This document shows, piece by piece, positions 2,731-29,066 of a DNA stretch of 64,000 nt; position 1 is the stretch's first letter; each line of letters starts with the position of its first letter. The position numbers and the translations under genes are program-made. Origin of the DNA: Mobula hypostoma (Eukaryota). The DNA lies in the NCBI RefSeq assembly GCF_963921235.1, contig NC_086108.1, positions 4,216,001 to 4,280,000 on the forward strand, given 5' to 3'. The notes under the pieces were generated by a model that had not been told where the DNA came from, did not search any database, and was given only the letters and a program-made list of their open reading frames with translations.

Positions 2731-3673
2731 TGGTGAGTGAAGTTATCCACACTGGTTCAGGAGCCTGATGGTTGAGGGGTAATAACTGTTCCTGAACCTG
2801 GTGGTGTGGGACCTGAGGCTCATTGTGGTGAGTGAAGTTATCCACACTGGTTCAGGAGCCTGATGGTTGTGGGGTAATAACTGCTCCTGAACCTGGTGGT
2901 GTGGGACCTGAGGCTCATTGTGGTGAGTGAAGTTATCCACACTGGTTCAGGAGCCTGATGGTTGTGGGGTAATAACTGTTCCTGAACCTGGTGGTGTGGG
3001 ACCTGAGGCTCATTGTGGGGAGTGAAGTTATCCACACTGGTTCAGGAGCCTGACGGTTGTGGGGTAATAACTGTTCCTGAACCTGGTGGTGTGGGACCTG
3101 AGGCTCATTGTGGGGAGTGAAGTTATCCACACTGGTTCAGGAGCCTGATGGTTGTGGGGTAATAACTGTTCCTGAACCTGGTGGTGTGGGACCTGAGGCT
3201 CATTGTGGTGAGTGAAGTTATCCACACTGGTTCAGGAGCCTGATGGTTGTGGGGTAATAACTGTTCCTGAACCTGGTGGTGTGGGACCTGAGGCTCATTG
3301 TGGTGAGTGAAGTTATCCACACTGGTTCAGGAGCCTGATGGTTGAGGGGTAATAACTGTTCCTGAACCTGTTGGTGTGGGACCTGAGGCTCATTGTGGGG
3401 AGTGAAGTTATCCACACTGGTTCAGGAGCCTGATGGTTGTGGGGTAATAACTGTTCCTGAACCTGTTGGTGTGGGACCTGAGGCTCATTGTGGTGAGTGA
3501 AGTTATCCACACTGGTTCAGGAGCCTGATGGTTGTGGGGTAATAACTGTTCCTGAACCTGGTGGTGCGGGACCTGAGGCTCATTGTGCTGAGTGAAGTTA
3601 TCCACACTGGTTCAGGAGCCTGATGGTTGTGGGGTAATAACTGTTCCTGAACCTGTTGGTGTGGGACCTGAGG
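2731..3673. repeat. 95-bp tandem array, 10 copies, derived from a Rex/Babar-type LINE 3' end on the minus strand
   Basis: Unit TGGTGAGTGAAGTTATCCACACTGGTTCAGGAGCC...GGGACCTGAGGCTCATTG starts at 2731, 2826 ... 3586; ORF track repeats with a 95-nt period. Confidence 0.95.
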
Positions 3674-3739
3674 CAGGAGATGGCAGCAGCGAGAAGTAAT
3701 TGATTAAAGCTGATTTTTTTTTTTCTCAAATAAACATCT

Positions 3740-4140
3740 CTAATTGTGGAACAAGGGGTTCTGGGAATGCAGGTCCATAATTCTTTGGAAGTGACATCAT
3801 AGGTAGATAAGGTTGTAAAGAAAGTTTTTGGTGCATTGGCCTTCATAAATCAAAGCATTGAGTACAGGAGATGGGATGTTATGTTGAAATTGTATAGGAC
3901 TTTGGTGAGGCCTAATTTGTAGTATCGTGTGCATTTCTGGTCACCTACCTACAGAAAAGATGTCAGTGATGTTGGAAGAGTGCAGAGAAAATGTACAAGG
4001 ATGTTGCCGAGACTGGAGGACCTGAGGTACAGGGAAAGATTGAACAGGTTGGGATTTTATTCCCTGGAGTGTAAAAGAATGAGGGGAGATTTGATAGAGC
4101 TATACAAAATTATGAGGGGTATAGATAGAGTGAATGCAAA
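3740..4140 (+). mobile_element. CR1 LINE ORF2 3' fragment
   Basis: FWSPTYRKDV...RVQRK.TRMLP.LEDLRYRERLNRLG.YSLE..RMRGDLIE (ORF 3929..4222). Confidence 0.88.
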
Positions 4141-4389
4141 CAGCAATGAGTGTTGGGTGCAGAATTCCCTTAACTGGAACATAAATCACAGGGAACCCAT
4201 TCAGGTCAAAATCAAAAACTAATCACTTAAGGACGAGAAGCAGAATGAAATCATATTCATATAATGAGCACTACGCCAAACGCAGTGACAGTATAAAAAT
4301 AGTCATCAAACAAACCCAAATAATTGTCATTCAGGTGTGTCAAGACCTGCCTCTGCCCAGTGCCCGTCCCCCGTCGCAGGTGCAAAGGG

Positions 4390-5020
4390 CTCATGACGGC
4401 GAGAGGCATGGAGGCCTCCCCCGGAGAGAGAGTTGTGCACCAAGTTGCTGGGAGCTCTGTTCACGTCACAGACGACCTCACCCGGTCCCTCAATATCACC
4501 TCCCTAAACAAGAAGGCGCAGCAATGTCTCCACTTCCTGAGGAGATTGAGGGGGTAGCCCAGAATCGGACTGGTAGTCCCTACAAAGGACTGTGGGAATG
4601 GCCAAGATGACCATAGGGGTCTCCCTACCGTCCATCGGGGACATTTATCAGGAGCACCGCATACGCAGGGTCCTTAGTATTATTAAGGAACCCACCCATC
4701 CATCCGGCATCCTCTTTGACTTTCTACCATCAGGCAGGAGACTCCGATGCATAAAAACAAGAACGGTCAGGATGGGAAACAGTTTCTTCCCTCAGGCCAT
4801 TAGGCTTCTGAACTCCCTGCCTCATCACATCGTTTAGTCTGTCCTGTACCTGACAATATTTAATTTATGCACTTTACTGTGTTTATTTATGTATAATTCA
4901 CCTGTAGATTTTATCCTTACTTTCCTAAGTTATTGTGTGTTGTACGTATGTCTGTGTACAACTGTGTTGTACACCCTGGTTTAGAGAAACGTCTCGTTTG
5001 GGTGTATACATGTACTTAGT
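4390..5020 (+). mobile_element. Rex1/Babar-type LINE 3' fragment
   Basis: KKAQQCLHFLRRLR and LPSGRRLRCIKTRTVRMGNSFFPQAIRLLN (ORFs 4324, 4592). Confidence 0.78.
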
Positions 5021-5694
5021 TAAATAGTCATAGTCATACTTTATTGATCCCGGGGGAAATTGGTTTTTGTTACAGTTGCACCATAAATAATAAATAGTAA
5101 TAAAACCATAAATAGTTAAATAATAATATGTAAATTATGCCAGTAAATTATGAAATAAGTCCAGGACCAGCCTATTGGCTCAGGGTGTCTGACCCTCCAA
5201 GAGAGGAGTTGTAAAGTTCGATGGCCACAGGCAGGAATGACTTCCTATGACGCTCTGTGTTGCATCTCGGTGGAAATGACAGTAAACTTGACTGTGGTCT
5301 AGGTGCTGGTCAATGGGACTTGGCAGGGTAATGGTTTAGCACAGACTTGATGGGCTGAAGGGCCTGTTTCTATGCTCTATGACTTTGTAATAAACCAAGT
5401 GGACGGGGGTGGGGTGCGTTCAGAATGTCTGGGATGAAAAGGGAGATGAGTTGGTTAGCAGAGAAACATTGCTCCTGTGCTGAGTGACACTATGATTGTC
5501 CTTTTGCAAGGAATGTTAATGAACCAGTTGGGCCTTTACAATATGTTAGTTTTATAGTGAGTTATTAATAGCAGAAGTTTATTTTATTAACAAATTCTTC
5601 AACATGCTGCCTGCTGTGCTGTGGTTCAAAGTCGAAAGTAAATGTATTATCAAAGTACGTACATATCACCATGTACAACCCTGAGGTTCATTCA

Positions 5695-6388
5695 CAAACA
5701 GAGAAAATCTGCAGGTGCTGGAAATAAAAGCAACACACACAAAATGCCGGAGGAACTCCACAGGCCACGCAGCATCCATGGGAAAGAGTGAACAGCCAAC
5801 CTTTCGGGCTGAGACCCTTCATCGGAACTGGAGAAAAAAGATGAGGAGTCAGCGTAGGGAGGTGGGGGAGGGGAGGAGGAAGTACAAGGCGGTAGGTGAA
5901 ACCGGCACCGGGGAGGGGTGAAGTGAAGAGCTGGGAAATTGAATGGTGAAAGAGATAACGGGCTGGAGAAGGAGGAATCTGACAGGAGAGGACAGAAGGC
6001 CATGGAAGAAAGGGAGGAGCAGCAGAAGGAGACGATGGGCGGGTAGGAAGATAGGATGAGAGAGGGAAATAGGAATGGTGAGAGAAATGGGAAGGCCATT
6101 ACTGGAAGTTTGAGAAATTAATGTTCATGCCATCAAGTTGGAGCTACTGAGAGGGAATGTAAGGTGTTGCCCATCCAGCCTGAGTGTGGTCTCATCATGG
6201 CAGCAGAGGAGGCCACGGACTGACCTGTCAGACTGGGAATGGGAATGCGAGGTGGAATTAAAACGGGTGGCTGTGGCTGCTGGGAAATCCTGCTTTGTCT
6301 GGCAGATGGACCAAAGGTGCTTCTCCATCCGCCAGAACAGGCGGGATCTCCCAGTGGCCACCCATTTTAATTCCCTTTCCCATTTCTG
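5695..6388 (-). mobile_element. Penelope-like element fragment with short inverted segment (6320-6388)
   Basis: Same pseudo-LTR and GIY-YIG C-terminal sequence as 387-1156, reverse strand; hammerhead core mutated (CCGATGA). Confidence 0.75.
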
Positions 6389-7589
6389 AGATTTGTTGTC
6401 TTGCAGACATTCACAATAAATATAAGAACCACAATCTTGTGTTTTAAATTTTATTTTATTGAGATACAGCTCAGAATAGGCCCTTTGAGCCCCGCCGCCC
6501 AGCAATTTGTGTTTGTCCGTCATGTCTGACGACAACAGGAAACCTGTGCGGGAGAGTTTTTAAAGTGGAAAGGCTGTTGCACTGGGAGAGTTCCACTCTC
6601 TACCTCAGACGTCTGAATCCAGTGGTGTGAACAAGTATCACAAACTGGGGCCTTCCTGGGTGGTAGTGTATGACCATGACATCTTCTGAGCTTTGTCATG
6701 TCCTTCGCTCTCCGCGAAGCGTTGCAGTAATACCGTCCTGGCTGTTGGATCTCATCTGCCCAGTCCGACACAATAGAATCAATGAAAGGCCACCCACAAC
6801 AAGATGCAGTAAATACTGAGAAAATGGAATGAAGAGTCCTTGAAATTGAGTCCATAGTTTCTGGAAACAGTTCAGTGTTGGGGTGAATGAAGTTATATCT
6901 CCTTTGGTTTAAGAGCCTGATGGTTGAGGGGTAATAAATGTTTCTGAACCTGTTGGTGTGGTCCTGAGGCTCCTGCATCTCCTTCCTGATAGATAGATAC
7001 TCTATTGATTCCACAGTAGCATTACAAGTGCACAGATATACAAATATTAGAATAGAAGTAAGAAAGAATTAAAAAAGGTTACCACAAGCAGCCTTCCCCA
7101 GCTATAGGTTGACTCATTATAGCGCCTAATGGCCGAGGGTAAGAATGACGTCATTTGGCGCTCTTTGGAGCAGCGACTGAGACAACAGCCTCCAGTGTGT
7201 CCAGTTTGACTCCTATAACAGAGCCAGCCTTTCTAATCTGTTTATTGAGCCTGTTGTCATCACCCATGGTGATGCCATTGCCCCAGCACACCACCACATA
7301 GAAGATTGTACTGATGACAGCAAATGGGTAGAACATGTGAAGGAGAGGTCCGCATACTCCAATGGACCTCCTGTTTCCTCTGACGGCAGCAGTGTGGGCT
7401 GCATGGTGGGAGTCCTTTATGATGGATGCTGCTTGCTTGTGACAACACTCCTTGTAGATGTGCTCAATGGAAGGGAGGACTTTGCCCATACTGGACTTAC
7501 ACATCAGTCCTGTTAATGAACACCAGATCTAGCATTAGGGAGACTTATAAGTTGGATTTGCTGGTTGTGCCCCCTCTTATTAGTCACTT

Positions 7590-8000
7590 CTGCCCTGGAA
7601 ACAGGGTCGGGCTGTCCAACCTATCAATGCCTCTTGTCATCCAAAACACTTTTATCAAGTCAGCTCTCATCCTCCTTCGCTCCAAAGAGAAAAGGCCCCG
7701 CTCACTCAACCTTTCCTGATAAGACAGGTATTTATTTTATAATTATTATATAATAAATTATATATAATATTATAATTCTGTCTAATCCAGGCAGCATCCT
7801 GGTAAATCTCCTCTGCACCCTCTGTAGAGCTTCCATATCCTTCCTATAATGAGGTGACCAGAACTGAACACAATATTCCAGGTGTGGTCTAACCAGGGTT
7901 TTATACAGCTGCAACGTTACCTCAGGGCTCTTGAACTCAATCCCTGACTTATGAAGGCCAATACATCGTACATCTTCTTGACCACCCTGTCATCTTTCAC
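7590..8000 (-). mobile_element. CR1 LINE ORF2 fragment
   Basis: [41 protein letters not shown] (ORF 7732..7914). Confidence 0.88.
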
Positions 8001-8859
8001 TGCAACTATCTTATACTAAATTGTGCAAAAAAGATATTTCAAGGAACTTCAGAGAAAGAGTTCTGGAGCTCAGGATCAAAACTGGGACCCTAGGTAGGCA
8101 GCTGTTCTACCCACTGCACTACTGTGCTGCTGCTAGCCTAGTCTCTGCCCCTGCCCCTGGGGCAAGAGTTGTGGTGTTAGGAGTCTGAGGGGCAGGGGCT
8201 GCACCTTCCCCTCTCACCTCCCATCTCAGTGAAGAAACTCTGTCGCTGAAAATGGCTGCTGCAGTGCCACTTGCTGCCTCCTACTATTGATTAGAGGCAC
8301 AGTCTCTCCATCCTACCCACCTCCCAGCGCCGAGGGAGTCCCACTCCCGACAAACAACCAGGGCAGTACTGAGGGAGGGCCTCTCTGAACCCTGAACCCC
8401 GGGTTAGGGACTTCTCTCCATTGCCATGGTGATTGATTCCTCAACCAACGTCACTGCCAGTAGCACCTCATCAGCTCTCCCCTCTCTCCCCCTTCCCCTC
8501 TACCCCACCTCTCCTCTTTCCCTCTGACCTCTCTCACTCACCTTCTTTCTCCCGTTTGTTCTGTTCCCCGGCAACACCAGTTTCATATTTGTGTGTGTGT
8601 TTTTTTTGTGGCAGAAAATGTTTCGTTCTCACTTTCTGGAATGTTCCTCCATCTGCAATTAATTTTTTTCCAAGAGAAGAGAAATAATGACAAACTCATT
8701 TTTGGAGCTGTTTTGGAAGTCTGGTCCCCATATGCTTTTCTTTCTCTCCCTTGCTCTCTTTCTATATATATATAATTATATCTTTTTGTCTCTCTCTCTC
8801 TCCCTCTCTGTCTTCCTGTCTTGCTGTCTCAATGCCTTTCTCTCCATCTTCCTGTCTCT

Positions 8860-8946
8860 CTCTCTCCCCCAAACTCCAGGGAGGAGAAAGTCAGTCTGTG
8901 ATCTCCCAGACTCCCACAGACACTCTCTCCACACCCTCTCTCCCTG

Positions 8947-8977
<31 letters not shown>

Positions 8978-9117
8978 TATCCAAACCCCAGGGAGGAGGG
9001 AGTCGGTCTGTGATCTCTCTCTCTCCCTCCCTCCCTCCTTCCCTCCCTCTCCCTCTCTCATACACATCTCCAAACCCAGGGAGGAGATAGTCGGTCTGTG
9101 ATCCTGTGATCTCTCCA

Positions 9118-9154
<37 letters not shown>

Positions 9155-9207
9155 CCTCTCTCTCCCTCTCCCTCTCCCCCTCTCCCTCTCCCTCTCCCTC
9201 TCTCCCT

Positions 9208-9238
<31 letters not shown>

Positions 9239-9330
9239 CCCCTCCCTCCCTCTCCCTCTCCCTCTCTCATACACACCTCCAAACCCCAGGGAGGAGAGAG
9301 TCGGTCTGTGATCCTGCGATCTCTTCATTC

Positions 9331-9361
<31 letters not shown>

Positions 9362-9692
9362 CACCTCCAAACTCCAGGGAGGAGTCAGTCTGTGATCTCC
9401 CAGACTCCCACAGACACTCTCACCACACCCTCTCTCCCTGTCTCTCTCTCTCTCTCACACACCTCCAAACCCCAGGGAGGAGAGAGTCGGTCTGTGATCT
9501 TGTGACCTCTCCATTCCCTCTCTCCCTCTCTCTCTCTCTCACACACACACACATATCCAAACCCCAGGGAGGAGAGAGTCGGTCTGTGACCCTGTGATCT
9601 CTCCATTCCCTCCCTCCCTCTCCCTCTCTCATACACACCTCCAAACCCCAGGGAGGAGAGAGTCGGTCTGTGATCCTGTGATCTCTCCATTC

Positions 9693-9756
<64 letters not shown>

Positions 9757-9892
9757 CCAAACCCCAGGGAGGAGGGAGTCGGTCTGTGACCCTGTGATCT
9801 CTCCATTCCCTCCCTCCCTCTCCCTCTCTCATACACACCTCCAAACCCCAGGGAGGAGAGAGTCGGTCTGTGATCCTGTGATCTCTCCATTC

Positions 9893-9946
<54 letters not shown>

Positions 9947-10080
9947 CCAAACCCCAGGGAGGAGGGAGTCGGTCTGTGACCCTGTGATCTCTCCATTCCC
10001 TCCCTCCCTCTCCCTCTCTCATACACACCTCCAAACCCCAGGGAGGAGAGAGTCGGTCTGTGATCCTGTGATCTCTCCAT

Positions 10081-10164
<84 letters not shown>

Positions 10165-10220
10165 CCAAACCCCAGGGAGGAGGGAGTCAGTCTGTGATCT
10201 GCCACAGACACTCTCTCCAC
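8860..10220. repeat. Compound minisatellite: about 13 copies of a conserved core separated by variable (CT)n/(CA)n microsatellites
   Basis: Core CCAAACCCCAGGGAGGAGAGAGTCGGTCTGTGA recurs at about 8869, 8981, 9070, 9279, 9366, 9465, 9557, 9641, 9757, 9841, 9947, 10031, 10165. Confidence 0.9.
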
Positions 10221-11352
10221 TCCCTTGCCCCTGGGTCTTTCTTTAAGAAAGTGTTTGGGCTGAAACTAGATCTACTGTGATGGGGAGGGAGAGGAGAGCA
10301 CGCCTGGAACCTTGGCTGAGGAGAGAGACTCCACCATCTGCGAGTGATTAGAGTTTGGAAAGCAGCTTGTTTTGAGGAAGCAGCGGACTGGATCCAGAAG
10401 GGGTTGTAGCGAGGCTGCCTGGGATCACGGTGACACCAGCACTTCACTACAAACTCTGCAGTCAAAGGCTGCACATCTGCAGGCAGGATCTTTCACCATT
10501 AAAGGGAAAGGACCACCTGGTTTTTAGAACAAAAATTGCCCAAAATTTACTTTCCAATTTAAATCCAATATTGCTTCCTCATCTAGTTACAAGTCCTTTA
10601 TTATTTGTTACTTCTTCCCAAACTCTGATCTGTTTAAGTGTTGGCTTGATATCCCGAGTGGGGGACACCGTTGCTGAATTTGTGCCCGAGTCGTCTCTTT
10701 AATCAGCTTTGTGGCGCCTGGCTTACAGAGCAGTGATATCATAAAGCACAGCACAGAAACAGGCCCTTCGGCCCATCTAGTCTGTGTCAAAACCATTTAA
10801 CCTCCCATCGACCTGCTGTGGGTCCATACCCCTCCATCCACGTACCCTTCCAAACTTGTCTTAAACTTTGAAATCCAGCTTGCATGCACCTTGCTCTGGC
10901 AGCTTGGTTGACTCTCTCCCCAGCCTCTGAGTGAAGTTTCCCGTCATGTCCCCCTTAAATTTTTCACATTTCACCCTTAACCCGTGATCTCTGGTTGTAC
11001 TGTAGTCCCACTCAACTTCTGTGGAGAAAGCCTGCTTGTATTTATCCTGTCTATATAATTTTGAATACCTTTATCAAATCTCCCCTCATAATTCTGCACT
11101 CCTCTATCAAATCTCCCCGCAATCTTCTACGTTCCAAGGAATAAAGGTCTAACCTATTCAATCTTTTCTTATAACTCAGGTCTTCCAGATTCAACAACAT
11201 CCTTGTAAATTGTCTCTGTACTCTTTCAATTTACTCTTTTATTTACATCTTTCCTGTGGGTAGGTGACCAAAACTGCACACAATACTCCAAATTAGGCCT
11301 CACCAACATCTTATACAACTTCAACATAACATCCCATCTCCTGTACTCAATA

Positions 11353-13459: not shown

Positions 13460-13660
13460 AGATGTTTGAGAGGCTGTCGTAGGGCCTACTTTCTCCGTGC
13501 GCAGTCACGGAGGAGCTTCGATGTGTCCCTGCAGCGGGGAAAGTGCCGGGCAGCAGGGTTCATTCTGGAGTCTCCCTCCACTGGAAGACCAAAGGGTGCC
13601 CTTCGCCGGGTTGATGATCTCCCAACAGCAGTACACGTACCTATGCAGCGTGAGAATCCT
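13460..13660 (-). mobile_element. Possible degenerate Tx1/L1-clade ORF2 C-terminal fragment
   Basis: Minus strand reads CCWEIINPAKGTLWS, resembling the C-terminal motif of Tx1-like elements; recognised by eye only. Confidence 0.35.
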
Positions 13661-15878: not shown

Positions 15879-16004
15879 ATGAACAAGCTGAAGCAGAGTC
15901 TACGACGGAAGAAGCAGCCGTATGTGCCTGAAGCGAGCCGCCCGCACCAGTGGCAGTCTGACGAAGAATCGGTGCGCAAGGGCAAGTGTAGCTTCCCAGT
16001 CAGG
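15879..16004 (+). CDS. NUMBL: Numb-like protein, first identifiable coding exon (MNKLKQSLRRKKQPYVPEASRPHQWQSDEESVRKGKCSFPVR); exon starts at 15863
   Basis: Acceptor tgcAG at 15861-62, ATG in ccgccATG context at 15879, donor AGG|gtgagt at 16005, 42 codons, phase 0. Residues QSLRR, VRKG and FPVR resemble NUMBL more than NUMB (QSFRR, VRTG, FPVK). Confidence 0.9.
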
Positions 16005-16124
16005 GTGAGTACCTGGCCGTCTAACTCTGGGGCTGGGAGAACGGCCAAGAGGACTGGGGTATAAAAGCAAGACACGAAGGTTAGCCTTTGTAAGGCATGT
16101 GGAGTACTGTGGGCAGCTTTGACC

Positions 16125-16605
16125 AAAGACCGTAAGATATTGGAACAGAATTGGGCCATTTGGCCCATCGAGTCTACTCTGCCATTTCATCATGGCTGAT
16201 CCATTTTCCCCTCTCAGTCCCAATCTCCTGCCTCCTCCTTCATATCCCTTCATGTTCTGACTAATCAAGAATCTATCGACCTCTGCCTTAAATATACCCA
16301 ATGACTTGGCCTCCACAAAGTCCACAGATTCACCACCCTCTGGCTAAAGAAATTCCTCATTCTCTCTGTTCAGAAAGGATTCACCTCTCTTCTGAGGCTG
16401 TGTCCTCTGGTCTTAGATTCCCCCATCATAGAAAGCATCCCCTTCACATCCACTCTATCGAGGCCTTTCACCATATGATAGGTTTCAATGAGGTCACCCC
16501 CATTCTTCTGAATTCCAGTGCGTAGAGGCCCAGAGCCATCAAACACTCCTCATATGATAAGCCTTTCAATCCCAGAATCGTTTTCGTGAACTTTCTTTGA
16601 ACCCT
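16125..16605 (-). mobile_element. CR1 LINE 3' end
   Basis: VEAKSLGIFKAEVDRFLI (ORF 15900..16325) and CR1 3' UTR just after the first NUMBL coding exon. Confidence 0.82.
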
Positions 16606-16835
16606 GTCTGGGCCCCATGTCTAAGGAAAGAAGTGCTGGTGTTGCAGCGGCTTCAGCGGAAGCTCGTGAGAATGGTCCCGGGACTGGCCTCTTGTCAGCA
16701 GTCATCAGCTTTCAGGAGTCGCCTACTGTCCTAATGAAACTACAGACAGATACAAGGTTTTGTATTGTAGATTGAAAGGGTTAATGCGTGAGGAGCATTT
16801 GATGGCTCTGGGTCTTTACTCACTGATGTTTAAAC

Positions 16836-17564
16836 CAGGGGTCCCCAACCTTTTCTTGCACCGCGGACCGGTTTAATATTGACAATATTCTGGTGGACCG
16901 GCCGACCGGGGGTGGGGGGAGTGTTCAAGTAGGGTTAAACTCACCTCAACATGTCTTTTACGGTTAGGGTTGCCAATTTTCTCACTCCCAAATAAGGGAC
17001 AAAAGTAGCAGTCAAATACCAGGACAGTGTTTACCCCGAGAAAGACTACCATGACCATGAAACCTTGCGTGGGCACCTGTGTGTGCATGCGTGTACCTGC
17101 CGATTTTTTCCACAAATCGGACTTGACTTAATCTTCCTGACTACACAGTACATACATTATTTCTACTTTGTATAGGCTGTGTATTTATCATATCATTCCT
17201 GCTTTTACTATATGTTGGTGTTATTTTAGGTTTTATGTGTTATTTGGAATGATTTGGTAGGTTATTTTTTGGGTCTGGGAACGCTCAAAAATCTTTCCCA
17301 TATAAATTAATGGTAATCGCTTCTTCGCTTTACACCATTTCGGCACAAACGGTTTCATAGGAACGCACTGCATTAGCAGGGGAAATACGGGACAAGGGCG
17401 GTCCCGTAAGGGACAAACCAATTTAGCCCAATATACGGGATGTCCCGGCAAATATGCGACAGTTGGCAACCCTATGTTCAAGTTCAACAGTGCGTGACAG
17501 GGAATGAGGAAAGGTGCAGCTGACTCATATCGGTTCCTCGCGGCCCGGTGGTTGGGGACCGCTG
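16836..17564. mobile_element. hAT (Charlie-like) non-autonomous composite element inserted in a CR1 LINE
   Basis: TIRs CAGGGGTCCCCAACC / GGTTGGGGACCGCTG; 8-bp TSD GTTTAAAC (16828-35) vs GTTTAGAA (17565-72); CR1 sequence resumes across the site. Confidence 0.85.
16930..17474. mobile_element. Nested hAT (Blackjack-like ends TAGGGTT...AACCCTA) element containing a Tigger/pogo-like terminal fragment
   Basis: Perfect 8-bp TSD TGTTCAAG at 16922-29 and 17475-82; inverted motif TAGGGTTGCCAA (16965) / TTGGCAACCCTA (17463-74); multiple CGGGAC-type subterminal motifs. Confidence 0.7.
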
Positions 17565-17620
17565 GTTTAGAAGAATGAGGGGGGAATCTCATTGAACCTA
17601 TCAAATATTGAAAGGCCTCG

Positions 17621-19952
17621 ACAGTGTGGGTGTGGATAGGATGCTTCCTATGGTGGGGGAGTCTAGGACCAGAGGGCACAGATAGAGTGGATGTGGAGAG
17701 GATGTTTCCTATAGTGGGGGAGTCTAGGACCAGAGGGCACAGATAGAGTGGATGTGGAGAGGATGTTTCCTATATTGGGGGAGTCTAGGACCAGAGGGCA
17801 CAGATAGAGTGGATATGGAGAGGATGTTTCCTATAGTGGGGGAGTCTAGGACCAGAGGGCACAGATAGAGTGGATGTGGAGAGGATGTTTCCTATAGTGG
17901 GGGAGTCTAGGACCAGAGGGCACAGATAGAGTGGATGTGGAGAGGATGTCTCCTATAGTGAGGGGGAGTCTAGGACCAGAGGGCACAGATAGAGTGGATA
18001 TGGAGAGGATGTTTCCTATAGTGGGGGAGTCTAGGACCAGAGGGCACAGATAGAGTGGATGTGGAAAGGATGTTTCCTATAGTGGGGGAGTCTAGGACCA
18101 GAGGGCACAGATAGAGTGGATGTGGAGAGGATGTCTCCTATAGTGAGGGGGAGTCTAGGACCAGAGGGCACAGATAGAGTGGATATGGAGAGGATGTTTC
18201 CTATAGTGGGGGAGTCTAGGACCAGAGGGCACAGATAGAGTGGATGTGGAGAGGATGTTTCCTATAGTGGGGGATTCTAGGACCAGAGGGCACAGATAGA
18301 GTGGATGTGGAGAGGACGTTTCCTATATTGGGGGAGTCTAGGACCAGAGGGCACAGATAGAGTGGATGTGGAGAGGATGTCTCCTATAGTGAGGGGGAGT
18401 CTAGGACCAGAGGGCACAGATAGAGTGGATATGGAGAGGGTGTTTCCTGTAGTGGGGGAGTCTAGGATCAGAGGACACAGATAGAGTGGATGTGGAGAGG
18501 ATGTTTCCTATAGTGGGGGAGTCTAGGACCAGAGGGCACAGATAGAGTGGATGTGGAGAGGATGTTTCCTATAGTGGGGGAGTCTAGGACCAGAGGGCAC
18601 AGATAGACTGGATGTGGAGAGGATGTCTCCTATAGTGAGGGGGAGTCTAGGACCAGAGGGCACAGATAGAGTGGATGTGGAGAGGATGTCTCCTATAGTG
18701 GGGGATTCTAGGACCAGAGGGCACAGATAGAGTGGATGTGGAGAGGACGTTTCCTATATTGGGGGAGTCTAGGACCAGAGGGCACAGATAGACTGGATGT
18801 GGAGAGGATGTCTCCTATAGTGAGGGGGAGTCTAGGACCAGAGGGCACAGATAGAGTGGATATGGAGAGGATGTTTCCTGTAGTGGGGGAGTCTAGGATC
18901 AGAGGACACAGATAGAGTGGATGTGGAGAGGATGTTTCCTATAGTGGGGGAGTCTAGGACCAGAGGACACAGATAGAGTGGATATGGAGAGGATGTTTCC
19001 TATAGTGGGGGAGTCTAGGACCAGAGGGCACAGATAGAGTGGATGTGGAGAGGATGTTTCCTATAGTGGGGGAGTCTAGGACCAGAGGGCACAGATAGAG
19101 TGGATGTGGAGAGGATGTCTCCTATAGTGAGGGGGAGTCTAGGACCAGAGGGCACAGATAGAGTGGATATGGAGAGGATGTTTCCTATAGTGGGGGAGTC
19201 TAGGACCAGAGGGCACAGATAGAGTGGATGTGGAGAGGATGTTTCCTATAGTGGGGGAGTCTAGGACCAGAGGGCACAGATAGAGTGGATGTGGAGAGGA
19301 TGTCTCCTATAGTGAGGGGGAGTCTAGGACCAGAGGGCACAGATAGAGTGGATATGGAGAGGATGTTTCCTATAGTGGGGGAGTCTAGGACCAGAGGGCA
19401 CAGATAGAGTGGATGTGGAGAGGATGTTTCCTATAGTGGGGGAGTCTAGGACCAGAGGGCACAGATAGACTGGATGTGGAGAGGATGTTTCCTATAGTGG
19501 GGGAGTCTAGGACCAGAGGGCACAGATAGAGTGGATGTGGAGAGGATGTTTCCTATATTGGGGGAGTCTAGGACCAGAGGGCACAGATAGAGTGGATGTG
19601 GAGAGGATGTTTCCTATAGTGGGGGAGTCTAGGACCAGAGGGCACAGATAGAGTGGATGTGGAGAGGATGTTTCCTATAGTGGGGGAGTCTAGGACCAGA
19701 GGGCACAGATAGACTGGATGTGGAGAGGATGTTTCCTATAGTGGGGGAGTCTAGGACCAGAGGGCACAGATAGAGTGGATGTGGAGAGGATGTTTCCTAT
19801 ATTGGATGGGTCTATGACCAGAGGGCACAGATAGAGTGGATGTGGAGAGGATGTTTACTGTAGTGGGGTAGTCTAGGACCAGGGAGCACAGATAGAGTGG
19901 ATGTGGAGAGGATGTTTCCTATGGTGGGGGAGTCTTGGACCAGAGGGCACAG
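17621..19952 (+). repeat. 61/63-bp tandem array, 38 copies, amplified from CR1 ORF2 coding sequence
   Basis: Unit ATAGAGTGGATGTGGAGAGGATGTTTCCTATAGTGGGGGAGTCTAGGACCAGAGGGCACAG; collinear CR1 sequence on both sides (about 16770-20180). Confidence 0.95.
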
Positions 19953-20387
19953 CCTCAGAATAGAAGGATGTTTTTTTTAGAAAGGGGATGAGGAGGAATT
20001 TCTTTAGCCAGAGAGTGGTGAATCTGTGGAATTCGTTGCCACAGAGGGCTGTGGAGGCCAAGTCATTGGGGAGATTAAAAGGGGAAGTTGACAGGACCTT
20101 GATTAGTCAGAATGTCAAAAATAACGGGGAGAAGGCAGGAGAATGGCGTTAAGAGTGATAATAAATTAGCCATGATGGAGTGGTGAGGCAGGCTCGATTT
20201 GAGGTGAGGTATAGGTACAAAGTAGATCTTGCTTGCAGCAGCATCACAACACCGATGTGTAGATTTATACTGCATGTAAGCAAGCCATTCAGCCCAACTT
20301 CTCCATTCTAACCCCGTTGTCCAATGGGCAAAGCCTAATCTGCCCGCTTTGGGCCCAAAGCCTTTTACAGCTCTCCTGTGCAGCGCA

Positions 20388-20545
20388 CGGCGGTGTGGCG
20401 CTAGAAGAATGGTTTACAGTACAGGTGATCTGGGTTCAATTCCCGCCACTGTCTGTAAGGAGTTTGTACGTTCGCTCCATAACTGTGTGGGTTTCCTCCG
20501 GGTGCTCTGGTTTCCTCCCACAGTCCAAAGACGTGCCAGTTAGTA
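20388..20545 (+). mobile_element. V-SINE/HE1-like SINE, 5' part; 3' part resumes at about 22906-23007 after a CR1 insertion
   Basis: B-box GGGTTCAATTCCC and V-domain TGTGTGGGTTTCCTCCGGGTGCTCTGGTTTCCTCCCACAGTCCAAAGAC. Confidence 0.8.
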
Positions 20546-22905
20546 GACCACGAGACCGTAAGACATAGGAGCAGAATTAGACCATTCATCTCATCAAGTC
20601 TGCTCCACCATCTCATCGTGGCTGATCCCGGATCCCACTCAACCCCACACGCCTGTCTCCTCGCCCATATCCTTTGATACCCTGATTGATCAGGGAACTA
20701 TCAACTTCCAGCAAACGGACTTGGCCTCCACCGGATTCTGTAGCAGAGCGTTCCACAGATTCGCAACTCTCTGGTTATAAAAATTCCTCCTGACCTCGGT
20801 TTTAAAGAGTCGCCCCTCAGTTTTGAGGCTGTGCCCTCTAGTTCTGGATACGCCCACCTTATGAAACATTCTCTCCACATCCAACCTATCTAGTCCTTTC
20901 AACATTCAGTAGGTTTCAATGAGAACTCCAGGAATTTTTCTGAATTCGAGTGAGTACAGGCCCAAAGCTCCTCCTATGTTAACCCCTTCATTCCTGGAGT
21001 CATCCTCATGAACCTCTTCTGGACTCTCTCCAATGACAGCACATCCTTTCTGAGATATGGGGCCCAAAACTCTTGGCAATACTCTGTGCAGCCTGACTAG
21101 TGTTGTATAAAGCCTCAGCATTATCTCCTTGCTCTTATATTCTATTCCTCTTGAAATAAATGCCAACATTGCATTTGCCTTTTTTACCACAGACTCAACC
21201 TGTAAATTAATCTTCTCGGAGTCTTGCACAAGGACTCCCAAGTCCATCTGTACCTCTGATGTTTGAACCTTCTCCCCATTTAGATAATAGTCCGCACTAT
21301 TGTTCCATTTACCAAATTGCATTATCGTACATTTCCCAACGCTGTATTCCATCTGCCAATTTTTTGCTCATTTTTCCAATTTGTCTAAGTCCTGCTGCTT
21401 GTATTGCTTCCTCAGCACTAACTACCCCTCCACCTATCTTCGTATCATCCGCAAAGTTTGCCACAAAGCCATCAATTGCATTATCTGAATCACTGACAAA
21501 CAATGTGAAAAGTAGCGGTCCCAATACTGACCCCTGAGGAACACCACTAGTCACTGGCCCCAACCAGAAAAGGGCCCTTTTATTTCCACTCACTGCCTCC
21601 TGCCTGTCAGCCATTCCTCTATCCATGCCAGTATCTTTCCTGTAATGCGAAGGGGTTTTATCTTGTTAAGCAGCCTCATGTGTTACACATTAACAAAAGC
21701 CTTCTGAAAATCCAAGGAAATGATATCCACTGCCTCTCCTTTGTCCACGCTGTTTGTTACTTCCTCAAAAAACTCTGGTCAGGCAAGATTTCCCTTTACA
21801 GAAACCGTGCTGAATTTGACTTATTTTATCTTTAGTCTCCAAGTACCGCAAAACCTCATCCTTAATAATAGACTCCAGCACTTTCCCAACCAATAAGGTT
21901 GGGTTAATTGGCCTGTAATTTTCCTTCCTCTGCCTTCCAACCTTCTTAAAGAGTGGAGTGACATTTGCAATCTTCCAGTCCTCCAGGACCATGCCAGAAT
22001 CAAGTGATTCTTGAAAGATCATGACCAATCCATCTGTTATCTCTTCAGCAACCTCTCTCAGGACTCTGGGATGCAGTCCGTCTGGTCCAGATGACTTATC
22101 CACCTTAAGACCTTTGAGTTTGCCTAGTACCCTTTCCTTTGTAATAGCAATGGCACTCACTCCTGCTCCCTGACACTCACGGACCTCTGGCACACTGCTA
22201 GTGTCTTCCACAGTGAAGACTGATGCAAAGTCCCTATTAAGTTCATCCGCCATTTCTTTGTCCCCCATTACTACCTCACCAGCATCATTTTCCAGTGGTC
22301 CAATATCATCTCTCACTTCCCTTTTTACTCTTTATATAACTGAAAAAGCTTTTAGTATCCTGCTTTATATTATTGGCTAGTCTGCCCTCATATTTCATCT
22401 TTTCCATTCTGATAGCTTTTTTAGTTGCCTTTTGTTGGATTTTAAAAGCTTCCCAATCATCCAACTTCCCACTCACTTTTGCTACATTATATACCCTTTC
22501 CTTGGCTTTTATGCAGTCCTTAACTTCCCTTGTCAGCCACGGTTGCCTACCATTTGAGAACTACTACGTCTATGGGACATATCTATCCTGCGCTTGGTGA
22601 ACTATTCCCAGAAACTTCAGCCATCTCTGCTCTGCCATCATCCCCACCAGTATCCTCCTCCAATCCACCTGGGCAAGCTCCTCTCTCACGCTTCTGTAAT
22701 TCCCTTTATTCCATTGTAATACTGATACGCCTGACTTATGCTTCTCCCTTTCAAATTGCAGTGTGAATTCAATCATATTATGATCACTGTCTCCTAAGGG
22801 TTCCTTTACGTTAAGCTCCCTAATAAGATCTGGGTTATCACACAACACCCAATCTGAGATGGCCTTTTCCCAAGTAGGCTCAAGCACACGCTGCTCTGAA
22901 AAGCC
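20546..22905 (-). mobile_element. 5'-truncated CR1 LINE (end of endonuclease, RT, tail) with frameshifts
   Basis: EPLGDSDHNMIEF, KSSGPDGLHPRVLREVAEEI, VTSGVPQGSVLGPLLF, FADDTKIGG (ORFs 22570, 21765, 21309, 20906, 20690). Confidence 0.92.
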
Positions 22906-23189
22906 AGGTTAACTGGTCATTGTAGTTGGGTTAAGTCGGGGGAACTCTGGGCGGTGTGGCTCGAAGGGCTGGAAGAGCTTGTTCCACACTGTATCTCAAT
23001 AAATAAATGGATATCCATGTGCTTATCTGGTAGCTTTTAAACATCTTTAATGTACCTGGCAGATTGTTCCAAATACGCACCATCTTTGCCTGAAGAAACT
23101 GCCCCCGTTGCCCATGTTAAATCTCTCACCTCTGATCTTAAACCTCTGCCCTTTTGCTTTGAGTACTCATCCCTGGGAAACGTCTAGGT

Positions 23190-23745
23190 ATTCTACATGA
23201 GCAAGACCCGTCATAGCTTGGGAGACTGCTTCGGCGAGCACCTCCACTCCATCTGCCGCAAGCAGGACTTCCTGGTGGCCAAACATCTTAATTCCCATTC
23301 CTGTTCCAACATGTCAGTCCATATACCAGGAGAAGGCCACCCTCAGGGTGGAGGAGCAACACTTTATATTCTGTCTGGTAGCCTCCAACCTGATGGCATG
23401 AAGATCGATTTCTCCCTCTAGTATCAAATTCCACCCCCTCCCTCTTTTCCCCACTTTAACCTCTTACCTTTTCTCTCCTATCACCCCTCCTCCTTCCCTC
23501 TCCTCTCCTGTCAGATTGCTTCCTCTCCAGCCCTTGACCTTTCCCACCCACCTCCTTCACCTATCGCCTTCTCGCTATCCTCCTCCCCCTCCCCCCCCCA
23601 CCGTTTTATTCTGGAATCTTCTCTCTTCCTTTTCAGTCCTGGTGAAGGGTCTTGCCCAAAATGTCAACTGTTTACTCTTTTCCATAGACGCTGCCTGACC
23701 TGCTGAGTTCCTCCAGCATTTTGTGTGTGTAATCTCACATCTGCA
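23190..23745 (+). mobile_element. Penelope-like element 3' fragment
   Basis: TRHSLGDCFGEHLHSICRKQDFLVAKH...GSLQPDGMKIDFS (ORF 23197) followed by a pseudo-LTR with a degenerate hammerhead. Confidence 0.78.
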
Positions 23746-23869
23746 GACTCTTTATCTAATTAGTTATGAAATCTGTTTCATGTTGGAATGTTGGAAAAAG
23801 ATATTTTATTTACTCAGATTCAGATTCATTTATTTATCAGACATAGGTCAAAGCTTACCTTAGATTCTG

Positions 23870-24520
23870 TGGATGTGAACGGGACACCTTCCCAGGTGCC
23901 AGGATCAGTGACATCCTGAATCGTGTCCACAGCATTTTGGAGAGTGAGGGAGAGCAGCCAGATCTCCTGGACTTATCGGTACCAATGACATAGGAAGGAA
24001 AATCAAAGGGAACCTGAAGAGAGAATTTAGAGAGTTAGGCAGAAATAACAGGGGACAGGAGATGGCAGATGAACTAAGTGAATATTTTGCGTCAGTCTTC
24101 ACTGTGGAAGACACTAGCAGTGTGCCAGATGTTGAAGACTGTGAGGGAAGAGAAGTGGGTGCAGTTACTATTACAAGGGAGAAGGTGCTCAAAAAACTGA
24201 AAGACCTACAGGTACACAAGTCACCCAGACCAGATGAACTGCACCCTAGGGTTCCGAAAGAGGTAGCGGTAGAGATTGTGGAGGCATTAGTAGTGATCCT
24301 TCAAAACTCATTGTACTCTGGCACGGTGCCAGAGGACTGAAAAATTGCAAATGTCACTTCACTGTTTAAGAAAGGAGGAAGGCAGCAGAAAGGAAATTAT
24401 AGACCAGTTAGCCTGACCTCAGTGGTTGAGAAGATGTTGGAGTGAATTGTTAAGGATGAGGTCATAGAGTACTTGGTGACACAGGAGAAAGTCAGCATGA
24501 TTTCCTTCAGGGAAAATTTT
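23870..24520 (+). mobile_element. Internally deleted CR1 LINE (ORF1 esterase fragment joined to ORF2 fragment)
   Basis: PGARI.DI...EGEQP-like ORF1 remnant; MADELSEYFASVFTVED...KSPRPDELHPRV (ORF 24062). Confidence 0.75.
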
Positions 24521-24741
24521 GCCCTAAAATAGCCCCTAACTCTCTTCTCTGTCTGCAGAATCATCCCTGCAAACTCCAAATGAATACAACTACATCTGAG
24601 CCACGATCTCGACAGAGACCGCAGATCAACGCCACCTTGACCACATCAAAAATTTCAACACCACAAAAAAGTTTAAAAGTCAATTTATTATCAAAGTACA
24701 TATATGTGACAGTATGCTACCTTGAGGTTTTTAAAAACTTT

Positions 24742-25265
24742 ATTTATTGAGATAGAGTGTAGTGGTAGGCCCTTCTGGCCTTTCGAGCCGCACCAGCCAG
24801 CAACCCCGAATTAATCCTAGCCCAATCACAGTACGATTTACAATGACAAATTAACCTAACGACCGGTACGCCTTTAGACTGTGGGAGGAAATGGAAGCTT
24901 CCTGGGAAAACCCACGTGGTCACGGGAAGGAACATACAAACTTGCTTAACAGAGGATGCTGGAATTGAACTCTGAACTCCAGTGCCCCGAGCTGGAACAG
25001 CATCTCACTAAATGCTGCGCTCTGCGGTGCCCCACCTCATAGGCAAACAGCCAAGCACCTGCTAGCTTGTACCCCTTCCCCTTCATCTATCTTATTCTGG
25101 CTTCTTCCCCCATTCCTTTCCAGTTACTCCAACTGATGGGCGGCAGGGGGGCGCGGGGGGAGAGCAAGTGACCAGGAACATACAAACTCCTTACAGGCAG
25201 CAATGGGAATTGAACCCAGGTCGCCTGTACTGTAAACCATTGTGCTAACCACTACACTACAGTGC
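24742..25265 (-). mobile_element. Two V-SINE/HE1-like SINE copies or fragments
   Basis: Reverse V-domain (TTTAGACTGTGGGAGGAAA) and B-boxes GGAATTGAACTC / GGGAATTGAACCC. Confidence 0.7.
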
Positions 25266-25441
25266 CAGTCTTTTTTTTTTGCAGGCATTCACAGAAGAAA
25301 TAGAGTAGAATCAATGGAAAGCTACTCACAAAGACCGGCCAGTGTGCAGTTAGGATAGATAGATAAATAAATACCGCTGAGAACACGAGTTGTAGAGTCC
25401 TCGAAAGTGAGTCTGTAGGTTGTGGAATCAGTTCAGTGTTG

Positions 25442-26100
25442 AGGTGAGTGAAGTTATCCACACTGGTTCAGGAGCCTGATGGTTGTGGGGTAATAACTGT
25501 TCCTGAACCTGGTGGTGTGGGACCTGAGGCTCATTGTGGTGAGTGAAGTTATCCACACTGGTTCAGGAGCCCGATGGTTGTGGGGTAATAACTGTTCCTG
25601 AACCTGGTGGTGTGGGACCTGAGGCTCATTGTGGTGAGTGAAGTTATCCACACTGGTTCAGGAGCCCGATGGTTGTGGGGTAATAACTGTTCCTGAACCT
25701 GGTGGTGTGGGACCTGAGGCTCATTGTGGTGAGTGAAGTTATCCACACTGGTTCAGGAGCCTGATGGTTGTGGCGTAATAACTGTTCCTGAACCTGGTGG
25801 TGTGGGACCTGAGGCTCATTGTGGTGAGTGAAGTTATCCACACTGGTTCAGGAGCCTGATGGTTGTGGGGTAATAACTGTTCCTGAACCTGGTGGTGTGG
25901 GACCTGAGGCTCATTGTGGTGAGTGAAGTTATCCACACTGGTTCAGGAGCCTGATGGTTGTGGGGTAATAACTGTTCCTGAACCTGGTGGTGTGGGACCT
26001 GAGGCTCATTATGGTGAGTGAAGTTATCCACACTGGTTTAGGAGCCTGATGGTTGTGGGGTAATAACTGTTCCTGAACCTGGTGGTGTGGGACCTGAGGC
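25442..26100. repeat. 95-bp tandem array, 7 copies, same unit as 2731-3673
   Basis: Unit starts 25442, 25537 ... 26012; runs directly into LINE body sequence at 26101. Confidence 0.95.
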
Positions 26101-26889
26101 TTCTGTACCTCCTGCCCGATGGCAGCAGTGAGAAGTGAACATGGTCTGGGTGGTGGGGGTCCTTCATCACGGATGTTGCTTTCTTGAGTAGATGTGCTGT
26201 GATTTTCTGTGCTCCGTGTTCTAAATTTCAAGATTTACGTCAGTGATCCTAAACCAGGTTCTGATTCTCAGAGACTTTTTATGTTTTGCACTGGTTGGTG
26301 GGTGTCCGTTTTGTCTGACAATGACAAGAGACCAGTGCAGGAGAGTTTTTAAAGTAGAAAAGATGTTGCACTGGGGCATTTCTGCTTTCTTTATCTCAGA
26401 AGTCGGGGTCCAGTGGTATGAACAAGCGTCACAGACTGGGGTCTTCCTTGGTTGCAGTGGATGACCGTCTGTGCCTTGTCATGCCCTTCATTCTCCAGCG
26501 AGCGTTACAGTATCACCTTCCTGGGTGTTGGATCTCACTGTAGATCTGCTGGAGCTGACTTTGCAAACTAGGACAGGCCTGTCTCTCTCACCAGGGTATG
26601 AGGCTGCTGGCTACCCTTGCCTGCTTTAGCCAGCCTGTTGAAGTGGTGTACTGGGGTGTGGCTGCTGCCACATGAGGTCAGTTACTTGGAGCCACAGGTG
26701 AGAGCAGAGTGTCCAGTGGGGGCCAAAGGGTGAGTGAGCTGCCCTGGGATGGACATGACAAGCCGTTTAACTAGAGGTGCTGCCCCTCCCTGGACACCTC
26801 GTACACCCCTTGCACTGAACTGCTGCCGTTAAACAACAAATTTCATGACGTGTCAGTGATAATGAACCTGATTCTGAAGACAAAGTTCA

Positions 26890-27018
26890 TATCAGAGTAC
26901 ATACATGTCAGCATATACAACCTGGAGATTTATTATCAGAGTACATATATGTCAGCATATACAACCTGGAGATTTATTATCAGAGTACATATATGTCAGC
27001 ATATACAACCTGGAGATT
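26890..27018. repeat. 44-bp tandem triplication in a LINE 3' tail
   Basis: ATCAGAGTACATATATGTCAGCATATACAACCTGGAGATTTATT at 26891, 26935, 26979. Confidence 0.88.
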
Positions 27019-27242
27019 AATTTTCTTGTGGGCATACTCAGCAAATCTATAGAATATTAACTATAAAAGGACCAATGAGAGACCGCACCAATTTGGGTGT
27101 TCAATCAGTGTGCAGAAGACAACTGTGCAAATACAAAAATAAACAAATAATAATAATCAATAAATAAACAATAAATATCGAGAACATGAGATGAAGAGTC
27201 CTTGAAAGTGAGCCCATAGGATGTGGGAACATTTCAATGATG

Positions 27243-27710
27243 GGGTGAGTGAAGTTATCCCCTGGGTTCAACAGCCTGATGGTTGAGGGGTAATAACTGT
27301 TCCTGAACCTGGTGGTGTGGGACCTGAGGCTCATTGTGGTGAGTGAAGTTATTCACACTGGTTCAGGAGCCTGATGGTTGAGGGGTAATAACTGTTCCTG
27401 AACCTGGTGGTGTGGGACCTGAGGCTCATTGTGGTGAGTGAAGTTATTCACACTGGTTCAGGAGCCTGATGGTCGTGGGGTAATAACTGTTCCTGAACCT
27501 GGTGGTGTGGGACCTGAGGCTCATTGTGGTGAGTGAAGTTATCCACACTGGTTCAGGAGCCTGATGGTCGTGGGGTAATAACTGTCCCTGAACCTGCTGG
27601 TGTGGGACCTGAGGCTCATTGTGGTGAGTGAAGTTATCCACACTGGTTCAGGAGCCTGATGATTGTGGGGTAATAACTGTTCCTGAACCTGGTGGTGCGA
27701 GTCCTGAGGC
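27243..27710. repeat. 95-bp tandem array, 5 copies (first copy divergent)
   Basis: Unit starts 27243, 27337, 27432, 27527, 27622. Confidence 0.92.
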
Positions 27711-29030: not shown

Positions 29031-29066
29031 GAGTTCTATTCATGCAATGTTGGCATGGGTAGTATC

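What the first reader, a model, noticed from the sequence alone, without database searches (positions are those of the whole stretch)
2731..27710. One 95-bp LINE-derived unit with an identical novel junction is amplified in three different LINE copies
Seen: arrays at 2731-3673 (10x), 25442-26100 (7x) and 27243-27710 (5x) share the junction GAGGCT-CATTG-TGGTGAGTGAAG. The unamplified monomer (about 6880-6975) and the array exits at 26101 and 27711 instead continue GAGGCT(C/T)CTG. Host flanks differ, and the first unit of array 3 is divergent while inner units are homogeneous. Inference: independent slippage should not recreate the same junction, so the array probably spread by gene conversion into paralogous LINE copies or by retrotransposition of an array-bearing element.
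Basis: partly seen in the sequence, partly recalled or inferred. Interest (0 to 1): 0.7.

Follow-up and report, generated by a model that had tools for sequence, protein, structure and literature searches.

The report
LINE-born minisatellite copied into sister LINEs
A 95-base tandem repeat that arose once from the end of a jumping gene in a ray has most likely been copied by DNA repair into neighbouring, older copies of the same jumping gene, a clear vertebrate example of a repeat-spreading process already described in maize and flies.

Summary
Observation confirmed: three arrays (10, 7, 5 units) in a Numb-family locus of a ray; 19 of 19 junctions share GAGGCTCATT, and the three array consensuses are identical while host flanks are 69-88% alike. 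The unit is the last 26 codons of a LINE ORF2, its stop and a little 3' UTR. Array 3 has host-type letters only at the start of unit 1 and the end of unit 5, as if one host monomer was opened and donor units were copied in. The junction is in read-derived contigs of 3 of 3 organisms with data. It is rare here (roughly 30-60 copies, under 0.1% of family depth) and at least 7-fold commoner in one other organism. So it is neither an artefact nor the LINE consensus, but it is not private to this window. The same LINE segment also yields 70- and 48-bp arrays at microhomologies, apparently independently. Best reading: single origin, spread by non-allelic gene conversion or circle re-integration, then local expansion (0.7). 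Close precedents: maize CRM1TR, Drosophila Rsp-like.

The parts
2731..3674 (-). Array 1: 10 units of the 95-bp LINE-derived minisatellite (LINE sense is the minus strand)
2689..2730 (-). Array 1 host, 3' UTR stub (homology ends here, no LINE tail); 37/42 identical to array 2 host, 29/42 to array 3 host
3675..3697 (-). Array 1 host, ORF2-side stub: 18 nt replaced by a 5-nt inverted piece, then truncated
25442..26100 (-). Array 2: 7 units; both edge units are array-type up to the unit boundary
25363..25441 (-). Array 2 host 3' UTR; of the majority type among family contigs at least 90% alike
   Evidence: loose ends before 26013
26101..26190 (-). Array 2 host, ORF2 C-terminal remnant with native exit
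27243..27712 (-). Array 3: 5 units; host-type letters in unit 1 positions 1-45 and unit 5 positions 77-81; inferred opening point within unit positions 46-76
26890..27242 (-). Array 3 host 3' UTR and tail, with a private 44-bp triplication; closer to the array-less copy at 2247-2322 (65/76) than to array 2's host (55/76)
27713..28280 (-). Array 3 host, decayed ORF2 C-terminal region (stops, frameshifts)
6807..6990 (-). Array-less paralogous copy (monomer 84.8% identical to the unit), same orientation as the arrays
1366..2673 (+). Array-less paralogous copy in the opposite orientation, whose tail abuts array 1's host
25822..25916 (+). Consensus-type unit: predicted single long hairpin whose base lies at the unit ends (RNA z -4.15, DNA z -2.05)
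15879..53000 (+). Numb-family gene, approximate span of the coding exons seen (about 15.9k, 28.5k, 36.2k, 50.9k, 52.9k); arrays 2 and 3 lie in the intron between 16.0k and 28.5k, array 1 about 12 kb upstream

Best explanation
A one-off tandem duplication of 95 bp at the ORF2/3' UTR boundary of a very abundant ray LINE made a junction with one extra A and no real microhomology. The array persisted in several ray lineages. Because each unit is homologous to every LINE copy, a break inside the matching segment of another copy can be repaired from an array (synthesis-dependent strand annealing, i.e. non-allelic gene conversion) or can take up a circle excised from an array. Either route leaves the recipient's own flanks and splits its monomer between the first and last unit, as in array 3. 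Each array then grows and turns over locally by unequal exchange or slippage. Shown: shared junction, identical consensuses, divergent hosts, split-host edges in array 3, sharing of variants between adjacent units, junction in other organisms. Inferred: the repair event, its direction, donor and date. Conversion and circle uptake cannot be told apart here (my guess 60:40).
For: 19/19 junctions alike. Array consensuses differ at 0 of 89 positions; mean inner-unit distance between arrays 1.9-3.7%, against entry flanks 37/42, 29/42, 32/42 and exit 66/80. Array 3 against array 2: 35/156 flank differences, 7/267 in inner units (Fisher p 1e-10; worst single unit p 3e-5). Differences are confined to positions 1-45 of unit 1 (8/45 vs 0/44, p 0.006) and the end of unit 5 (3/13 vs 1/76, p 0.009); both cut points were chosen after seeing the data. 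T at unit position 81 in unit 5 is shared with both array-less copies. Informative sites in the 42-nt entry: 4 group A1+A2, 2 group A3 with an array-less copy, 1 conflicts. Controls: the private 44-bp triplication has host-type units, and 70-bp arrays at other ray loci carry locus-specific units. Junction depth in the probable source run is 300 against 10.1 for a single-locus contig, so the window's 19 junctions may be a third to two thirds of those in the genome, which fits short-range exchange. Precedents: PMC3648361, PMC7403614, PMC4384637.
Against: No empty allele of any of the three sites was seen, and no read spans an array. The split-host signature is clear only in array 3; hosts 1 and 2 are related (37/42) and could descend from one array-bearing ancestor with later homogenisation. 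Contig depth is not a copy number, 129 joints were not shown, and short junction contigs may be missed, so 'mostly local' is soft. One other organism holds many more junctions with point variants and a diverged form, so an old, large source elsewhere is possible. Conversion between sequences 12-25% apart is inefficient (general knowledge), although a 31-bp identical stretch is available at the inferred break. Two other copies in the window were not converted.
Confidence: 0.7

Rival explanations
1. An ancestral LINE master carried the duplication and spread it by retrotransposition. The three hosts inherited it, and later exchange between arrays kept only the interiors alike.
For: Hosts 1 and 2 share 4 informative sites. 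The junction is shared by 3 of 3 organisms with data and is abundant in one. All three arrays have the same orientation.
Against: Array 3's host groups with an array-less copy in its 3' UTR. Host 1 lacks the LINE tail. The junction is about 300 of 433,000 summed depth in the probable source run. It still needs inter-array conversion to explain identical consensuses.
Confidence: 0.12
2. RNA-mediated homing: the unit is cut out or circularised as a hairpin RNA, copied into multimeric cDNA by a LINE reverse transcriptase, and recombined into homologous LINE copies.
For: The unit folds as one long hairpin closed at the unit ends (plus-strand RNA -40.4 kcal/mol, z -4.15; 1 of 600 background windows as stable). 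The junction's A and the array-typical T45 each add a pair, and array-less copies do not fold this way. A unit-only donor would leave host flanks intact. The plus strand is the Numb pre-mRNA strand for arrays 2 and 3.
Against: Variants are not depleted at paired sites (7 of 16 break a pair, 6.6 expected). The LINE-sense RNA folds only modestly (z -2.12; 475 of 1200 background folds as stable). As DNA, 58 of 600 windows fold as well. No RNA run was laid. DNA-level repair explains the same pattern.
Confidence: 0.08
3. Independent, structure-guided slippage recreated the same junction in each copy (fold-back at the hairpin base supplying the extra A).
For: The extra A is the complement of the next base at the hairpin's base. 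The segment is a duplication hot spot, with go-back joints of 33, 36, 45, 48, 64, 68, 70, 93 and 95 nt among those shown. The 70-bp junction recurs at several loci.
Against: Independent arrays should have host-type units, but array 3's inner units match arrays 1 and 2, not its own edges. Array 3's unit 1 does not form the hairpin (z -0.13). With array 2 removed in silico, the closing stem at the unit ends was not the predicted fold. The recurrent 48- and 70-bp joints have 5- and 8-bp microhomology; this one has none.
Confidence: 0.06
4. Assembly or consensus artefact: paralogous LINE copies were threaded through one collapsed array.
For: No spanning read was examined. Contigs built from short words cannot phase edges with interiors. 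The supporting run may be the assembly's own source.
Against: The junction is in contigs of the probable source run at depth 300, more than 19 single copies need, and in two other organisms. Each array has its own variants, shared between adjacent units. The arrays are under 1 kb.
Confidence: 0.04

Closest known systems
Maize CRM1TR, retrotransposon-derived tandem repeats (Sharma et al. 2013, PMC3648361; passages and section 13 read)
   Same: Tandem repeat made from part of a retrotransposon, a junction without simple direct repeats, the same repeat at two neighbouring loci; the authors propose transfer by intrachromosomal gene conversion, possibly by recombination with a CRM1 copy.
   Different: LTR element, centromeric, loci 1.4 Mb apart, transfer proposed only. 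Here a non-LTR element, an intronic setting, three hosts within 25 kb, and a recipient monomer visibly split around the donor units.
Drosophila Rsp-like satellite spreading into 1.688 clusters (Sproul et al. 2020, PMC7403614; passages and section 12 read)
   Same: A rare junction forms once and is shared by clusters at different loci; spread uses homology to an abundant repeat; interlocus conversion and eccDNA re-integration are the two candidate routes; first and last repeats together make one monomer.
   Different: Two unrelated satellites joined by microhomology. Here the array colonises its own parent LINE family, and no eccDNA data exist.
ISX elements of Drosophila miranda (Ellison and Bachtrog 2015, PMC4384637; passages read)
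   Same: [quoted passage not shown]
   Different: Point-mutation haplotype under selection, shown with population data. Here a copy-number-changing array with no sign of function and no population data.
Transposon-derived minisatellites and satellites generally (review PMC9659126; passages read)
   Same: LINE ORF2/3' UTR segments are a known source of tandem repeats (chicken CR1-derived HinfI, cetacean L1-derived satellite).
   Different: The passages seen do not describe transfer of an array into other copies of the parent element.

Membership tests
Transposon-derived minisatellite | Head-to-tail units homologous to part of a dispersed element, in register with the element's flanks | tested here: met
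   the unit is the ORF2 C-terminus, stop and start of the 3' UTR, with native sequence on both sides.
Transposon-derived minisatellite | Parent is a LINE (reverse-transcriptase ORF2) | tested here: inconclusive
   No reverse-transcriptase domain in the three hosts; the 75-aa remnant has no Pfam hit. It is 44% identical (E 2e-14) to a longer relative at 42168-42845 that hits PF09004. The label Rex1/Babar- or L2-like is recalled, not tested.
Non-allelic gene conversion between transposon copies | Patch of near-identity between paralogues with sharp edges inside divergent flanks | tested here: met
   7/267 against 35/156 differences, p 1e-10.
Non-allelic gene conversion between transposon copies | Discordant relationships of patch and flank | tested here: met
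   Array 3's flank groups with an array-less copy (65/76 against 55/76; 2 informative sites), its inner units with arrays 1 and 2. Few sites; no tree was built.
Non-allelic gene conversion between transposon copies | Unconverted (empty) allele at the same site in other individuals or species | not testable with these tools
   No genome held; contigs break inside this high-copy repeat.
eccDNA re-integration | First and last units complement each other to one host monomer | tested here: met
   Array 3: host letters at positions 1-45 and 77-81, no overlap. Conversion predicts the same.
eccDNA re-integration | Circles of unit multiples exist | not testable with these tools
   Needs circle sequencing.
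Array-bearing LINE subfamily spread by retrotransposition | Flanks of the copies as alike as their arrays, with an intact 3' tail | tested here: not met
   Flanks 69-88% alike against 96-98% for inner units; host 1 has no tail.
Array-bearing LINE subfamily spread by retrotransposition | Junction is a regular part of the family | tested here: not met
   About 300 of 433,000 summed depth in the probable source run; the share may be higher in organism E.
Microhomology-driven recurrent slippage | Short direct repeat at both breakpoints and host-specific units | tested here: not met
   The 95-bp junction has one extra A between native ends (sequence) and non-host units; the 48- and 70-bp forms of the same segment do meet it.

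The most novel reading that the evidence does not exclude
A self-spreading, 'homing' minisatellite: a hairpin-forming 95-bp unit born from a LINE uses the very many decayed copies of its parent as landing pads, travelling as a DNA circle or a reverse-transcribed RNA multimer without encoding anything. It has stayed local in this species but has spread widely in at least one related ray. It would be a selfish element whose only machinery is homology to a resident transposon family.
Probability: 0.12. Interest if true: 0.75.

Novelty: new variant of a known kind. Interest (0 to 1): 0.42.

Why it matters
How a tandem repeat born at one locus seeds new loci is an open step in satellite evolution, and is usually argued from large arrays whose recipients cannot be recognised. 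Here donor, recipient and opening point can be read at base level in a vertebrate intron, beside arrays from the same segment that arose independently by microhomology. Species differ at least 7-fold in junction depth, so rays may offer a natural series from a local minisatellite to an amplified family. There is no evidence of function for the host gene, and the process itself has precedents, which limits the score.

Tried and rejected
No whole genome is held, so the genome-wide junction count could not be run. Junction 22-mer in metagenome and viral contigs: 0 hits each, uninformative for a vertebrate repeat. Run X23 (raw reads, another organism): 0 reads laid, no test; the cross-run count of the joined form was not given. 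Protein search with the 66-aa frame across two junctions: no candidate at similar length; 9 of 15 longer candidates passed, and 0 of 9 carry the 95-bp junction peptides; such a frame has stops every 67 codons, so this is weak. The junction makes an ATG in frame with the last 26 ORF2 codons; rejected as functional because three junction variants in organism E destroy it and nothing supports translation. Selection on the hairpin: not supported. Array 1 as a recent copy of array 2 with its flank: unlikely (5 of 42 differences; p 0.001-0.015 at 2-3.5% expected). Ten literature searches listed no paper on this repeat in rays; the library lacks most subscription journals and repeat databases, and no supplements were read, so a prior description is not excluded.
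Full report
Setting. The window is vertebrate DNA with coding exons of a Numb-family gene on the plus strand at about 15.9, 28.5, 36.2, 50.9 and 52.9 kb (one exon matches solved Numb and Numb-like structures, best E 4.5e-11). The LINE studied here matches predicted proteins of Hypanus sabinus, Mobula hypostoma and Mobula birostris, so the organism is most likely a stingray or devil ray; earlier notes of the scan say the same. No whole genome is held. Arrays 2 and 3 lie in the intron between 16.0 and 28.5 kb; array 1 lies about 12 kb upstream of the first exon seen.

Observation. Three period-95 arrays exist as described. All 19 of 19 junctions match the junction 18-mer within one mismatch, against 0.15 expected by chance. 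On the minus strand the unit encodes the last 26 residues of a LINE ORF2, the stop and a few bases of 3' UTR. The remnant is 44% identical to a longer relative at 42168-42845 that hits PF09004. The clade name (Rex1/Babar- or L2-like) is from memory and was not tested. Read directly from the sequence, the junction is the native exit up to GAGGCTC, one extra A, then the native entry from TTGTGG. Alternatively it is a 2-bp TC overlap followed by a 3-bp loss. Neither is likely to recur by plain slippage.

Units against hosts. The majority consensuses of the three arrays differ at 0 of 89 positions; inner units differ between arrays by 1.9-3.7% on average. The 42 bases before the arrays are 37/42 (1 vs 2), 29/42 (1 vs 3) and 32/42 (2 vs 3) identical, and the exits of 2 and 3 are 66/80. 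Over 76 bases, array 3's 3' UTR is closer to the array-less copy at 2247-2322 (65/76) than to array 2's host (55/76). In the 42-base block 4 informative sites group hosts 1 and 2, 2 group host 3 with that array-less copy and 1 conflicts. Array 3 against array 2 has 35 differences in 156 flank positions and 7 in 267 inner-unit positions (p 1e-10). In array 3 the host-type letters lie in positions 1-45 of unit 1 (8/45 against 0/44) and at positions 77-81 of unit 5 (3/13 against 1/76); these cut points were chosen after looking. T81 is shared with both array-less copies. The two host parts do not overlap, so one monomer opened between positions 46 and 76 and filled with donor units explains both edges. 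Arrays 1 and 2 are array-type almost to their boundaries. Host 1 is a stub without LINE tail, with 18 nt of its exit replaced by a 5-nt inverted piece. Variants are often shared by adjacent units, which points to local growth after seeding.

Reads and other organisms. Of 23 runs listed, 18 hold half or more of the words of 25300-25570, under ten organism labels. I laid 4 runs on 26006-26605, which holds one unit and the native exit. The joint that goes back 95 bases appears in all 3 contig sets: depth 279.2 (4 contigs) in X1, the probable source, 348 (3) in X6 (organism B) and 1750.8 (13) in X10 (organism E). A related 93-base joint adds 20.8 in X1 and 537.4 in X10. The fourth run gave no reads. 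A single-locus contig in X1 has depth 10.1 and other listed contigs 4.1-8.2, so the junction is present in roughly 30-60 copies, of which the window holds 19. Summed family depth at the exit is about 433,000, so the junction is under 0.1% of the family. The tool warns that depth is not a copy number, and 129 joints were not shown, so these are orders of magnitude. Organism B has what looks like the orthologous exit flank (203 bp, 7 differences, depth 2) and a similar junction depth. In organism E the junction is the consensus of the loose ends at the unit end (73 contigs, agreement 0.45); it occurs with several single-base variants at depth 190-613 and in a diverged form (9 differences in 80, depth 73.7). 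Unit-to-flank depth there is about four times that of X1. The junction is therefore real, older than this species, and much more amplified in at least one relative. No contig spans an array, so the edge structure of array 3 rests on the assembly.

A control from the same segment. One search also shows other go-back joints, notably 48 bp (5-bp microhomology; depth 810 in X1) and 70 bp (8-bp microhomology at 26045 and 26115; loose ends in 75 contigs in X1 and 151 in X10). A protein search with the frame across two 95-bp junctions returned 9 of 15 candidates, all ray gene models made largely or partly of arrays with a 70-residue period, i.e. three 70-bp units. None of the 9 has the 95-bp junction peptides. 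Most of those arrays share one junction, but their units differ between loci (one locus has LSP in 7 of 7 motifs, another LTP, LAP or PAP, the rest mostly PTP). That is what independent microhomology slippage predicts. It shows that a shared junction is not by itself proof of spread, and that the 95-bp arrays are different because their units do not follow their hosts. The 44-bp triplication in host 3's own tail also has host-type units.

Structure. The consensus unit folds as one long hairpin closed at the unit ends: plus-strand RNA z -4.15, DNA z -2.05. Array-less copies and array 3's first unit do not (DNA z 0.39, -0.23, -0.13). One of 600 background windows folds as well as RNA, 58 of 600 as DNA. 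The junction's A and T45 each add a pair; T45 is the minority letter in the family, about a quarter of depth in X1. But 7 of 16 variants break a pair where 6.6 are expected, and with array 2 removed in silico the closing stem is not predicted. The hairpin may make the unit break-prone (inference); there is no sign that it is selected.

Mechanism and rivals. Most likely (0.7): one origin, then homology-directed copying into neighbouring LINE remnants by non-allelic gene conversion or uptake of an excised circle, then local expansion. Rivals: inheritance from an array-bearing master plus later homogenisation (0.12), RNA/cDNA-mediated homing (0.08), independent structure-guided recurrence (0.06), artefact (0.04). 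The case is strong for array 3 and weaker for arrays 1 and 2, whose hosts are related.

Prior knowledge. Sharma et al. (PMC3648361; passages and section 13) describe a retrotransposon-derived repeat at two loci and propose transfer by intrachromosomal conversion with a parent copy. Sproul et al. (PMC7403614; passages and section 12) describe a once-formed junction shared among clusters, spread by conversion or eccDNA, with complementary first and last repeats. Ellison and Bachtrog (PMC4384637; passages) show sideways spread of variants among transposon copies, correlated between neighbours. A review (PMC9659126; passages) lists LINE-derived satellites. PMC10620051 (passages) reports more tandem repeats on small shark chromosomes, and PMC4820808 (passages) describes locus-restricted repeats. 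Ten searches listed nothing on this repeat in rays. No supplements were read, and repeat databases were not available.

Verdict. It works like CRM1TR and Rsp-like spread; the new aspect is an array colonising dispersed copies of its own parent LINE with a readable recipient. New variant of a known kind, interest 0.42.

Noticed in passing
window 17626-19952: 38-unit, 61-bp minisatellite from the 3' end of a CR1-type LINE (name recalled) in the same intron; first unit and the two units before the last are divergent, interior close to other copies' sequence, periodic 63-bp variants; one locus in the window, four array-less copies of the unit segment. May be a second imported array.
   Followed up: partly
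proteins P0001-P0007: Gene models of Hypanus sabinus and two Mobula species, including one named 'mucin-2-like', consist almost wholly of translated 70-bp LINE-derived arrays; probably annotation artefacts.
   Followed up: partly
proteins P0008, P0009: UBE2Z models of Mobula birostris and Mobula hypostoma both end in the same translated 70-bp array after the same residue: an orthologous array, possibly exonised.
   Followed up: no
window 26890-27022: Private triplication of 44 bp in the tail of array 3's host LINE; five paralogous tails in the window have one copy.
   Followed up: yes
window 3675-3697: Array 1's exit has 18 nt replaced by a 5-nt inverted piece and ends after about 20 more bases; the other end of its host abuts the tail of an opposite-strand copy of the same family.
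   Followed up: partly
run X10 (organism E): The unit region has about four times more depth relative to its flank than in X1 or X6, with many junction variants: a possible large 95-bp satellite family in that organism.
   Followed up: partly
window 8869-10159, 30456-32957, 34313-34821, 49460-49817, 53083-54141: Further minisatellites (84/200, 23, 30, 53/60 and 30-76 bp periods); no second array elsewhere in the window for those tested.
   Followed up: partly
window 58217-60338 (minus strand): Long LINE remnant with endonuclease-like and reverse-transcriptase frames (RVT_1 hit), RTE-like by recall.
   Followed up: no
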